Positions 26,001 through 38,000 of a stretch of DNA of 64,000 nt are shown here, one piece after another (position 1 is the first letter of the stretch; every line of letters starts with the position of its first letter). Origin of the DNA: Eledone cirrhosa (taxonomy: Eukaryota). The notes below the pieces were generated by a model. The model ran no database searches, was not told where the DNA came from, and saw only the letters and a program-made list of their open reading frames with translations. The stretch covers positions 222,952,001 through 223,016,000 of the forward strand of contig OZ024741.1 in NCBI GenBank assembly GCA_964016885.1. Reading direction: 5' to 3'. Both the position numbers and the translations under genes were made by a program.

Positions 26001-29000
26001 ATTTGAGAATGTAATTCGTTGGTGGAATGGTACATTAGATGAGCCATAAAAGCAGGGAGCAATATTCAATTGCTAAAAGAGAAACTAGACATCAGGTAAA
26101 TCTTGTAATGCAAAAGCAAATAGATTCTCTGAAACAAGACATCCTATTTTAAAGAGTTCCTATTTAAATTAAAATCTTCCAACAAAATTTTACATAAAAA
26201 CTTTTGTTAAATTATATCACAAATACCATCATGATGAAGTAATTATTTTAGTAAATCCCTCCAAATTCTTCATTAACTGAAATACAGTGTATTTCATTAT
26301 AATATGGTAATGAAAGCATTAAGATGTTCTTTGAAATCTATATTGATTGAGGGTTTTTTTTTTTTTTTTGCCTGCAGCTGATGGAGTTCCTTGGAGACCA
26401 GAATGAACTGGCTGCTGCTGATGTATTGGTGTTTGTCCGAGAAGCTGTCCAAAGGTTTGAGCAACTCCAGCCATTGGTCATCACCAAATTACTTGAGGTT
26501 TTCCCCACCATAAAAGCCCTTAAGTGAGTTACTTTACCTCTCAATCTCCCCATTCTCTCTCTCTCTCTCACACTTAGTACTGTTTTCTCTCTCTCTATCT
26601 CTCATATTCATTTCACTTTTTCTCACTTTTCCTTGCTTTTTATACAGCTCCACTCACACATTTTTCATGTTTCACTCAAACATTTCTAGTTTCACTCTCT
26701 TACATTTTCATAATCCCATTCACATTTTAACATCATCTTCCATTCCAGGATTTTCCGTGCTGCTCTGTGGATTTTGGGAGAATATTGTGACAGTTTAAAA
26801 GAAATTGAAGATGTTATGGCTCTTATCAAACAGTCTATTGGACAGGTATATAAACATTGATTCCTATATAAATATATATTTAAATCCATGTGTTACAGAC
26901 ATTCTTCCATTAACCCTTTTGTCACTATATTTCTAATATGTATCAATTTTTAAAATTTGAAGAAATTAATGAAAAAACTAACCTTTTGCTGATGTTTGAA
27001 ACATTACTTAACAAAAATTTCTTAAATAAAATTATGATAGAAGGTTTTGATATAATTATGAACATTTAATAAGCAGTTGTGTATTATAAAACCAGCGCAG
27101 TTTCTGGCATTTTGGTATCAAAAGGGTTAAAACACTGGGTATGAAATTTGAGCTGTTGATTCAATGTAACAGTTTCTTACTAATAGTCTACATAAAAGAC
27201 AGTTTATACAAGCATCTTAAGCACTGGAATATGTTTTGTACAGTTATGTTAAAATGAAACTTAACTGGTTGTTTAATGTACAAATGTTCTAATCTCTGGA
27301 AGATTCATGTTAACTATGGATCTTGTATTTCTAGATACCTGTTGTTGATGATGAAATTAAGAAAGCCTCTGGAGACAAAAAGGATGATGGTATGTTTTGA
27401 AACTAGATTTATATATTCATATTAAATGGCATATACCCATCAGCTATTGTTGGGAAATTTTTATGATGATGGTAATCATCATCATCATCAGCATCATTTA
27501 GCATCTGTTTTCCCTGATGGTCAGTCCTCAAGCAGAGCTATTGACCTCCAGGTGAATGCAAGAATGCCTTGGGATGCATACCTTTGCTTTGCGTACCCAT
27601 CCGATCTGCTGACAACCTGTCCAGCCCTTGTTAACAGAGAAAATGGACATTAAATAGTGATGATGATTATATATATATCATCATCATCATCGTTTAACGT
27701 CCATCTTCCACGCTTGCATGGGTTTGGATGGGAGTTTTCCCACTTGAGGCAAGAGTAGTTGTCTTGCTCGCATAGGACTGTCTGGCGGGTTTTCTACGGC
27801 TGGATGCCCTTCCTAACACCAACCACGTTTACAGTGTGGACTGGGAGGTTTTTACCGTGTTACCTACACGGCCACATTACAGCGTGGACTGTGTTTTTTT
27901 TTTGTCGTGACACCTACACGACCTCATTTGTTTCGGACTGGATGTTGTGGTACCAACATAACTTTACATTGAAAGGGGTGGGGGTAGTGCGACGGAGGTG
28001 TATTTTTGTTAGAGGTGCCTACTGAGTGTGGTAGGTTTCACTTTGTACTTAGGTTAGGTGGGTCTTCTGTATTACTGTGTAGCGCCAAAGATCTCGGTCC
28101 AGTGACATTGTCTTGGAGAGGTGTAAGTGTGTGAGGTCGGAATTTATCAAGTCGTCCCAGGTTTTTCTGGGTCTGCCTACTCCGTGGCTACCGTCTATTT
28201 TTATTGCCCTGCACTTTTTTATACAGCTGTCGTCTTTCATGCGCATCACGTGACCGTACCAACGTAGCCTTCTCTCGAGTAAACATCTGATCCCTCTTAT
28301 TTCTAATTTTTCCATTATTTCGTTTATGCTTTGCCGTTCACGTATATTACTATTACACATCCAGCGGAGCATGCAAGCTTCGTTCCTCTCTAGTCTGCGT
28401 ATATCCTCTGCACACAATGCCCAGGTCTCACTGTCATGTAACATTGCTGTTCGTATGCAGGCATCATACAGCCTGCCTTTCATTTTTAGAGAGAACCCTT
28501 TAGCGGCTAATAGTGATATAAGCTCTCTGAACTTTTTCCATCCAGTTCTGACTCTAGCTACTGTACTTTCAGAGCACCCTCCACCACTGCTGATTTTGTC
28601 ACCCAAGTAACGGAAGGTGTCCACTATTTCTATAGAACCCTCTGCGCAGTTGAAAGAGCTAGTATTTTGTGGGCACTTGCTGCTACTTATTGCACCAGAG
28701 CACCGGCCACATATAAAATCTATATTCTTAGTTAGCTTACCTGTGATCCCACTTTCTCTTTTATGCACCCATACTTTGCATTTGGGACATAAAATGGAGT
28801 TTCTGCCTACTCCTTTCCTACACACTGAGCATGGCCATTTCCCAGATGGGACCGGTGCCCTATTTTCCTTCCTACAAACTAGAACTTTAGTCTTAGACAA
28901 GTTAACTTTAAGGCCTTTTGATTCTAGGCCATGCTTCCATGTTTGGAATTTCTTCTCTAGTTCAGCCATTGATTCAGCTATGAGCGTTAGATCATCTGCA

Positions 29001-35000: not shown

Positions 35001-38000
35001 CACACCATCCAGGCCGAAACAAATGAGATCATGTAGGTGTCATGACAAAAAAACACACAGTCCACGCTGTAATGTGGCCGTGTAGGCAACACGGTAAAAA
35101 CCTCCCAGACCCACACTGTAAATGTGGTTGGTGTTAGGAAGGGCATCCAACTGTAGAAAACCTGCCAGACAGTCCTATGCGAGCAAGACAATCACTCTTG
35201 CCTCAAGTGGGAATACCCCCGTCCAAACCCATGCAAGCATGGAACATGGACGTTAAACGTTGATGATGATGATGAATTCCAGGATTCTGGAGCCTTCCTC
35301 ATTTCTAGTACCAAACCCATAGCCTCCATGGATTTCATCATAGCCGTCACAATGTTGTCCAACGTGACCATTTAGGTCGCCAGCAATAATTATATAGTCA
35401 CTGTCGGTTATTTGAGAGGTAGTGAGCATCAGTGTCTCATAGAAAGTGTCCTTTATAGCGCCAGGCAGTCCGGATTGGGGCGCGTACGCAGATATTATCG
35501 TCACAGTAGTTCTATTGAGAACAAGTCTTATTTTAATTATTCTGTCATTTACTCTATTTACGTCTATTATCTTATCCACCCATTTTTCTGCTAACATAAT
35601 TCCTACCCCACCCAGCCCATTGTCTTTTCCCACCCAGAAAAGCTTATAGCATCGTTTTTTTCCCACAATGAATCTAGCAGACCCGCCCCTCCACCTGGTC
35701 TCTTGGATGCAGCAGACATCAACCTCCTTACGTTCAAGCATTTCTACAACCTCGTTTGAGCGGCCTTTTAAGGTCTCTACATTCATGGTACCAACTCTGA
35801 AGTTTTGGATTGCGTTTGGTGGGTGGGGTGCAGGGAAGGGTGTGGTTGATGGGGTTGGGGTTATGTTGGCCATCCGCGGCCGCAACAAAGAGGGTGGGGC
35901 TTTGCTCTTTCGTCCGGCAGCAAGAGGTGAATTTGTCGTTATCTTTTGCATTGTCTTCGGGTGTCCAGATTCTTCTGACTCTCCAGAAATTCCCTAGTTC
36001 ATCCATCATATCGAAAAAGCAACCAGAAGTGCTAGCATAGGTCGTTTACTTGCGATTGGTCCAAATAATGTGGAGAGTGGGGGCGGGAGGGAGGGGTATG
36101 GGGTAGTTTGCGAGGAGCAGAATTATTTTTAGAACAACGGTGAGACAGAACAGAATTATAGAAAGCCAATTTTGAATACGATTTTTTGATTCTGGGGGAT
36201 TGTAAGATATATAGATGAATGAACCGAATGTGGAGAGTTGAGAAGAAATGAATATGTACGTTACATTTCGTAGAAGAAAACTGAACAAGCGACCATCAAT
36301 AATAGGAGACAAATTCTGGGTTTAGTCCCCTGTAGCAAGACTTATTTATATTTGGTTGGCAAGGAGTGAGGGGGAGTGCGAGGAGCAGAATTATATTTAG
36401 AACAACGGTGAGACATTTTTAGAACAACGGTGAGACAGAACAGCATATATGATAGTGAGAGTGAGGGGGTGAGAGGCAATTTCAGCAGGCCGAGAGAGAG
36501 AGAAGGCAATCCCTAATTTAACTTGGCGTAATTTTTTTTTTTTCGGCCAAAATGGTTGCGGGAATATTATTTAGAATTGTAGAAAGACAAACAATTATGA
36601 ACATGATTTTTTGATTCTGGGGAATTGTAAGATATATAGATGCGAGGAGCAGAATTATTTTTAGAACAACGGTGAGATAGAACAGAATTATAGAAAGCCA
36701 ATTTTGAATACGATTTTTTGATTCTGGGGGATTGTAAGATATATAGATGAATGAACCGAATGTGGAGAGTTGAGAAGAAATGAATAGGATATTTGCGTCA
36801 CAGAATTCCAGGATTCTGGAGCCTTCCTCATTTCTAGTACCAAACCCATAGCCTCCATGGATTCCATCATAGCCGTCACAATGTTGTCCAACGTGACCAT
36901 TTAGGTCGCCAGCAATAATTATATAGTCACTGTCAGTTATTTGGGAGGTAGTGAGCATCAGTGTCTCATAGAATCTGTCTTTTATAGCGCCAGGCAGTCC
37001 GGATTGGGGTGCATACGCAGATATTACTGTCACAGTAGTTCTATTTAGAACAAGTCTTATTTTAATTATTCTGTCGTTCACTCTATTTACGTCTATTATC
37101 TTATCCACCCATTTTTCTGCTAACATGATTCCTACTCCACCCAGCCAGTGTCATTTCCCACCCAGAAAAGCTTATAGCATCGTTTTTTACCCACAATGAA
37201 TCTAGCAGACCCGGCCCTCCACCTGGTCTCTTGGATACAGCAGACATCAACCTCCTTACGTTCAAGCTTTTCTACAACCTCGTTAGAGAGACCTTTTAAG
37301 GTGCCTACATTCATGGTACCAACTCTGAAGTTTTGGATTGCGTTTGGTGGGTGGTGAGGGGGATGGGGTTGGGTTTATATTGGCTATCCGCGGCCAAAAC
37401 AAAGAGGAGGAGTCCTTGCCCTTTCGTCCGGCAGCATGAGGTGAATTTGTCGTTATCTTTGGCATTGTATCTGAGTGTCCAGATTCTTCAGACTCTCCAG
37501 AATTCCTTAGTCCATCCATCATATCGAAAAGCAACCAGAAGTGATAGCATAGGCCGCTAACTTATGATTGATCCAAATAATAATGGTGGAGAGTGGGGGC
37601 GGGCGGGAGGGGTATGGGGTAGTTAGCGAGGAGAAGGTTTTAAATAAAGCATATAACAGTAACTAGCGATATACTGGGATTTTAAAATACACAAGATTAT
37701 TTAGAACAGCCAGACAGAATTATAGAATAGCATTGAGAAAGTAGGATTGGATTCTGGGCGATTATACAGATATATGGATGAATGAACCGAAGGGTGGGGA
37801 GACAAGAAGAAAATGGTATTTTTACATTACATTTCGTAGAATAAAGAAAGAGAGAGAGAGAGTATATGTTTGATATCTTTTATTTTCCATTCTCGTTTTG
37901 CTTGATTTTCCACAGATGTTTATACGGCAACTGGTGCCAGCCAAAAACGGGTGACTGCAGATGGTACTTATGCCACACAGAGCGCCTTCAGTACTGTTAC

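What the first reader, a model, noticed from the sequence alone, without database searches (positions are those of the whole stretch)
27678..37850. Three RTE LINEs nested inside one another, with both insertion points ~23 nt apart in the endonuclease region
Seen: the uninterrupted element (copy D, reverse complement of about 54855-54905) reads ...gtgttacagat^agttaggatatttgcgtcacaga^attccagg. Copy A breaks at the first caret (30531) and resumes at 36785 (taggatatttgcg; 3 nt lost). Copy B fills that gap, itself breaks at the second caret (33432) and resumes at 35276. Copy C, in the opposite orientation, fills that gap with a 2-nt GA overlap. Two independent insertions thus hit the same ~25-nt spot of a >4-kb element, and both 3' junctions show microhomology to the (GAT)n tail. 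Inference: a self-insertion hotspot could let the family inactivate its own copies while sparing host exons. Two events could also be chance. The stack makes up about 10.2 kb of a 10.5-kb intron and gives the age order A > B > C.
Basis: partly seen in the sequence, partly recalled or inferred. Interest (0 to 1): 0.75.

Follow-up and report, generated by a model that had tools for sequence, protein, structure and literature searches.

The report
Insertion hot patch inside RTE LINE
Three copies of one jumping gene sit inside one another in an intron, and the 30-letter patch they both hit is also hit by seven other insertions in this genome, likely because it suits the element's cutting and priming preference, but the patch takes only about 1 in 10,000 insertions, too few to switch the family off.

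Summary
The nest is as described: RTE-type LINE A holds B, which holds inverted C, filling 10.2 kb of a 10.5-kb coatomer-beta intron; divergence fits A>B>C. I surveyed 3,222 of 7,900 strand positions of the element genome-wide. Leaving out the window's two events, 7 of 44 nested insertions fall in the 30-nt patch spanning both breakpoints: about 30 per million target bases against 1.5 elsewhere (20-fold; P about 4e-5 against its own flanks). So it is more than chance. It is not unique: single bases at e781, e1186, e1361, e2098, e3157 and e3255 are also hit repeatedly, e781 as often per copy. A 76%-identical sister family uses the patch too. Junctions follow the family's general rule (primer ends in T, short or no duplication), and a matrix trained outside the patch ranks most of its nicks high. 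The patch is only about twice the genome mean and takes about 0.01% of roughly 78,000 insertions; 59 of 86 sampled ends lie beside microsatellites. Self-inactivation is not supported. Hotspots inside elements are known from human Alu. The scan noted this family's TA targeting before, not this patch. Inner junctions lack read confirmation.

The parts
27678..30531 (-). Copy A, 3' part (e1080-3949), (GAT)n tail beside a short (TA)n at 27678
30532..33432 (-). Copy B, 3' part (e1057-3950), inserted in A at e1080, same orientation; 2-nt AT overlap with the tail
33433..35275 (+). Copy C, 5'-truncated (e2111-3950), inserted in B at e1057/1058, opposite orientation; open 490-codon frame with RT and PHD finger
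35276..36785 (-). Copy B, 5' part: endonuclease codons and a 5' UTR with a tandem unit (146 nt repeated at 36109-36254 and 36641-36786)
36786..37850 (-). Copy A, 5' part (3-4 nt lost at the B junction)
   Evidence: outer junction bridged by public contigs
54870..54899 (+). The 30-nt hot patch (e1057-1086) in its uninterrupted form in copy D
27335..27389 (+). Host exon upstream of the intron (coatomer beta; start approximate)
   Evidence: frame, GT donor
37916..38030 (+). Host exon downstream of the intron (coatomer beta; end not mapped)

Best explanation
The stack is three separate insertions of one RTE-type LINE family, and the 30-nt patch they hit is a real but small insertion hotspot that likely arises from the family's ordinary target preference. 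Shown: nested and non-nested insertions share one junction form (target strand ends in T, usually AT, and runs into the complement of the (GAT)n tail; duplication mostly 0-4 nt, or a small deletion); six different nick positions on both strands lie in the patch; two families use it; other single bases of the element are also hit again and again. Inferred from the known target-primed reverse transcription pathway: the APE endonuclease would nick after a T, the freed end would pair with 1-3 bases of the RNA tail and prime synthesis, and sites with A-rich DNA just 3' of the nick would be favoured. Because thousands of copies carry the same sequence, any such site shows up as a recurrent breakpoint. 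No function for the element or host is needed.
For: 7 of 44 nested events in 0.23 of 24.8 million target bases (30 vs 1.5 per million; binomial against the same-window flanks 4e-5; 6 of 35 distinct sites in 60 of 3,222 positions, 4e-5). All 7 show the host resuming and differ in insert length or family. Other recurrent bases: e781 x3, e1186 x2, antisense e1361-63 x3, e2098 x2, e3157 x3, e3255 x2. 81 of 86 unbiased 3' ends have a primer ending in T, 72 of 86 in AT. A matrix trained on 13 sites outside the patch plus 16 non-nested sites ranks the six patch nicks at percentiles 98, 99, 91, 97, 53, 86 (p 0.0008 against all positions, 0.036 against T positions). Patch rate is 2.3 times the genome mean of 13 per million. 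Precedent: PMC2836564 section 13; PMC6007223 passages.
Against: Sequence explains the patch only in part: summed matrix score puts it in the top 15% of 30-nt segments, AT content in the top 7%. The A-rich signal 3' of the nick is weak outside the patch (p 0.08) and absent in the 16 non-nested sites (0.32 vs 0.30 upstream); site 1 itself lacks it. The endonuclease half stays 3-fold richer than the rest even without the patch (7 vs 25 events, p 0.012). Two hits in the patch in one stack are expected only about 0.0007 times per genome under independence, so this stack is a picked rarity or the events were not independent. Eight of eleven copy-number denominators are interpolated, and events were classed by eye.
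Confidence: 0.68

Rival explanations
1. The patch, and the endonuclease half in general, is hit because of its state in the cell: long copies with a promoter would keep this region open (nucleosome gap, transcription, RNA-DNA hybrid, or a mark read by the PHD finger in the RT), so local sequence only picks the base.
For: Residual 3-fold excess in e600-1290 without the patch; matrix ranks the patch only in the top 15%; double hit in one stack is very unlikely under independence; PHD finger in the ORF.
Against: e1290-1634 of the same long copies has 0 kept events; recurrent bases also occur in short, promoterless hosts (e3157, e3255); at least one patch host has no 5' end (L045). No chromatin or RNA data were examined.
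Confidence: 0.2
2. Chance: two unrelated insertions happened to land 23 nt apart, with breakpoints otherwise uniform.
For: Counts are small; the window was chosen for being striking; sites are overdispersed, which inflates event-level P values.
Against: The interval was named before the survey and the window's own events were left out; event-level and distinct-site tests both give about 4e-5; both exact junctions recur at other loci.
Confidence: 0.05
3. Adaptive self-targeting: the family aims at its own endonuclease codons to inactivate copies and spare host exons.
For: Every patch insertion does break the ORF; the patch and the next-richest sites (e781, e1186) lie in the endonuclease half.
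Against: 9 of about 78,000 insertions, about 0.2% of long copies; rate only about twice the genome mean; the sister family and an older host lineage are involved too; 59 of 86 ends sit beside microsatellites.
Confidence: 0.03
4. Assembly artefact joining repeat copies.
For: No public contig covers the B|C junction.
Against: A, B, C differ by 4.5-7.6%; junctions have insertion signatures and recur at other loci with other inserts; halves pair by subfamily alleles.
Confidence: 0.04

Closest known systems
Insertion hotspots inside targeted transposed elements, including the Alu-in-Alu single-position hotspot (Levy, Schwartz, Ast; PMC2836564; abstract and section 13 read)
   Same: Nested insertions pile up at fixed positions of the host element, self-insertion included; 82% of human insertion types deviated from the expected spread.
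   Different: Human Alu/L1 machinery, one dominant base and one orientation for Alu; here an RTE-type LINE, six nicks on both strands in 30 nt of coding sequence, several lesser sites, tiny share of all insertions.
RTE-clade target signature (PMC6007223; 12 passages seen)
   Same: Short-repeat 3' tail with 1-2 base overlap with the target; duplication starting with A in animal RTEs (here the primer ends in T); T-stretch about one helical turn from the cut proposed.
   Different: Duplications here are mostly 0-4 nt (up to about 13) against 7-15 nt quoted there for vertebrate RTEs; the T-stretch signal is weak here; main target is (TA)n.
Octopus RTE LINEs such as RTE-2_OV (PMC9115989, PMC13282606; passages seen)
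   Same: Single-ORF EN+RT elements in large, repeat-rich genomes with recent activity.
   Different: No sequence comparison made; RTE-2_OV is described with a C2H2 finger and a microsatellite 3' UTR; the word 'nested' occurs 0 times in either text. That the host is a cephalopod was my guess and was not tested.

Membership tests
RTE-clade non-LTR retrotransposon | APE-type endonuclease followed by reverse transcriptase in one ORF | tested here: met
   Exo_endo_phos, Exo_endo_phos_2 (below curated cut-off) and RVT_1 hits in pieces of B, C, D; long frames up to 940 codons in other copies
RTE-clade non-LTR retrotransposon | No large ORF1; about 3-4.5 kb (definition recalled) | tested here: met
   3,950-nt natural copy, endonuclease codons begin near e550; no long ORF in the 5' part of A, B or D
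RTE-clade non-LTR retrotransposon | 3' end in short tandem repeat, no poly(A), small overlap with target | tested here: met
   (GAT)n tails, primer ends in T in 81 of 86
RTE-clade non-LTR retrotransposon | RT groups with RTE-1/Bov-B in a tree | not tested
   no named reference RTs were fetched; 'RTE' rests on anatomy
RTE-clade non-LTR retrotransposon | Target duplications of 7-15 nt (vertebrate RTEs, as quoted in PMC6007223) | tested here: not met
   mostly 0-4 nt or small deletions, a few of 6-13 nt; a typical trait, not a clade-defining one
Sequence-specific LINE (R1/Tx1 type) | Most copies sit in one defined target sequence | tested here: not met
   patch holds about 0.01% of ends; targets are microsatellites and varied AT-rich sites
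Intra-element insertion hotspot (sense of PMC2836564) | Nested breakpoints deviate from an even spread along the host element | tested here: met
   on 3,222 of 7,900 strand positions
Intra-element insertion hotspot (sense of PMC2836564) | Independent events with the host continuing on the far side | tested here: met
   7 of 7 patch events resume; one with a 22-nt deletion, one in an older host lineage

The most novel reading that the evidence does not exclude
Long copies of this LINE are a marked target for their own machinery: the protein (perhaps through the PHD finger inside its RT) recognises the chromatin or RNA-DNA state of the endonuclease-coding region, so intact copies are preferentially broken and a copy hit once is hit again, a built-in brake whose true size is hidden in the assembly.
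Probability: 0.1. Interest if true: 0.65.

Novelty: new member of a known kind. Interest (0 to 1): 0.3.

Why it matters
Nested copies give exact empty-site sequences for an RTE-type endonuclease whose usual targets (TA repeats) hide the cut position; the recurrent bases found here are ready substrates for a cleavage assay. It also warns that transposon-in-transposon dating, which assumes even targeting, is skewed for this family. It does not show a new control system.

Tried and rejected
AGAGTG as a general motif: it fits e781 and e1186, but the third occurrence (e3036) is private to the reference copy, so could not test it. Hairpin at site 2: fold z about 0 on both strands. A special cluster of 5'-truncation points at e1077-1119: the control window shows a like cluster at e1396-1438, so dropped. 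B's 5' part as a duplicate of A's 5' part: 42 differences over e400-1056, several at subfamily sites, and closer relatives exist elsewhere (97.2%). L033 (junction at e1083) first looked nested but the host does not resume within 10 kb; not counted. Read support: public short-read contigs leave 33408-33431 uncovered; the tool says a hole proves nothing, and the sample differs from the window at some places. The 'skip 30531-36790' joints can come from any of thousands of copies. Phage search with the RT: no match. Random 200 kb held only 3 ends, too few for a map. Literature: searches found no paper on an RTE self-insertion hotspot; subscription papers (for example the Ichiyanagi and Okada study cited in PMC6007223, not seen) and supplements were not read and may bear on this.

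Full report
Observation. The window lies in a 3.0-Gb genome. Self-BLAST and projection on one natural 3,950-nt copy (L050; positions 'e') confirm the stack: A 3' (27678-30531, minus, e1080-3949), B 3' (30532-33432, minus, e1057-3950), C (33433-35275, plus, e2111-3950), B 5' (35276-36785), A 5' (36786-37850). The three copies are 92.4-95.5% identical. Private substitutions and nearest relatives order them A>B>C, weakly; nesting itself fixes that order. Subfamily alleles pair the halves as drawn (rho 0.56 over 28 long copies). B's 5' part looked more diverged, which is explained by a sub-lineage with tandem 5'-UTR units, with relatives up to 97.2%. The stack fills 10,173 of 10,526 nt of an intron of a coatomer-beta gene. 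Pfam finds APE endonuclease, RT and a PHD finger. Public short-read contigs bridge A's outer 5' junction but do not cover the B|C junction; this is inconclusive.

Test of the hotspot. I searched the whole assembly for a conserved 14-base anchor followed within 300 bases by the complement of a 3' end. Sense anchors catch opposite-orientation insertions (69 rows); antisense anchors catch same-orientation ones (52 rows). This covers 2,661 sense and 561 antisense positions of 3,950 each. All 121 rows were mapped and classed by eye; 44 were kept. Dropped: the window's own two events, rows found by two anchors, segmental duplicates, rows with a microsatellite or other spacer between host and tail, and antisense rows where the host does not resume (5'-truncated copies stacked beside another tail). 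About a dozen kept events outside the patch lack a shown resumption, which works against the patch. Copy numbers were measured at e911 (3,186), e1147 (4,168) and e2483 (11,117) and interpolated or extrapolated for the other eight anchors. Only exact anchors and intact tails are seen, so counts are lower bounds.

Result. Seven of 44 events lie in e1057-1086: sense nicks at e1058, e1061, e1073, e1082, e1086 and antisense e1080 twice. All seven hosts resume; one has a 22-nt deletion and one is an older host lineage. Inserts range from 79 nt to 2.3 kb and include a sister family 76% identical. Both of the window's exact junctions recur: e1080 at two other loci, e1057/58 at one.

Limits of the hotspot. 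Other bases are hit repeatedly: e781 three times, e1186 twice, e930/934 on opposite strands, antisense e1361-63 three times, e2098 twice, e3157 three times, e3255 twice. Per copy on the sense strand the patch (48 per million) and e781 (46) tie, then e1183-86 (29). The genome holds about 78,000 such 3' ends (twice the 39,054 uniquely counted reverse matches), 13 per million strand bases, so the patch is only 2.3 times the mean. It takes 9 of them (0.01%) and interrupts about 0.2% of long copies. In an unbiased set 59 of 86 ends lie beside a microsatellite. A sink this small cannot inactivate the family or shield exons.

Mechanism. Shown: 81 of 86 primers end in T, 72 in AT; nested junctions have the same form, with duplications mostly of 0-4 nt or small deletions. 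Site 1 is an AT step cut on either strand (e1080, e1082). Inferred from established target-primed reverse transcription: the endonuclease would nick after T and the end would pair with 1-3 bases of the (GAU)n tail. A matrix from 29 sites outside the patch ranks five of six patch nicks at or above the 86th percentile, but the patch as a whole only in the top 15%; the A-rich stretch 3' of the nick is significant in the patch (p 0.015), borderline outside (0.08) and absent in non-nested sites. No hairpin stands out. So sequence preference is the best reading (0.68) but leaves a remainder: the endonuclease half is 3-fold richer without the patch (p 0.012), and a double hit in one stack is expected about 0.0007 times per genome. 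A chromatin- or transcription-linked cause is the main rival (0.2).

Comparison. Hotspots inside host elements, self-insertion included, are established for human elements (PMC2836564: abstract and section 13 read). Tail-target overlap and weak target signatures are described for RTE elements (PMC6007223: 12 passages seen; lead taken from an earlier scan note). Two octopus repeat papers (passages seen) do not use the word 'nested'. Six searches found no report of an RTE self-insertion hotspot; subscription papers and supplements were not seen. RTE membership rests on anatomy; no tree was built. Earlier scan notes on this genome describe TA targeting, the PHD finger and 5' monomers, not this patch.

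Verdict. Real nest, real but minor hotspot, new member of a known kind; interest 0.3.

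Noticed in passing
window 33416-34888 (copy C frame, residues 230-273): PHD finger inside the RT-coding frame; an earlier scan note covers it.
   Followed up: no
window 36109-36785; G000:C2:271685789-271694088: 5' UTR built of tandem units; one locus carries dozens of 187-nt units matching it.
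   Followed up: partly
element e781 (L144, L146/L147, L149): A single base hit three independent times with the same 3-nt duplication; per copy as hot as the patch.
   Followed up: partly
L043:2893-7400 and many inserts: A young sister family, 76% identical, with 99%-identical copies and about 290-nt 5' tandem units, shares the tail and the targets.
   Followed up: partly
window 1-1209 and 5179-6388: Two 98.8%-identical copies in inverted orientation about 4 kb apart.
   Followed up: no
window 57096-57652: Copy D carries four tandem 139-nt units in its 3' UTR and lacks e2630-3037.
   Followed up: no
window 14590-23920 and 58849-62015: Two long strand-skewed tandem arrays (9.3 kb and 3.2 kb); the first ends just before a coatomer-beta-like exon near 23960 (exon identity recalled, not tested).
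   Followed up: no
L200, L212, L301, L311: After an opposite-orientation insert the host continues inverted rather than in line, suggesting insertion-linked inversions.
   Followed up: no
L160, L164, L099: Tail-to-tail pairs of copies joined across a few bases of AT.
   Followed up: no
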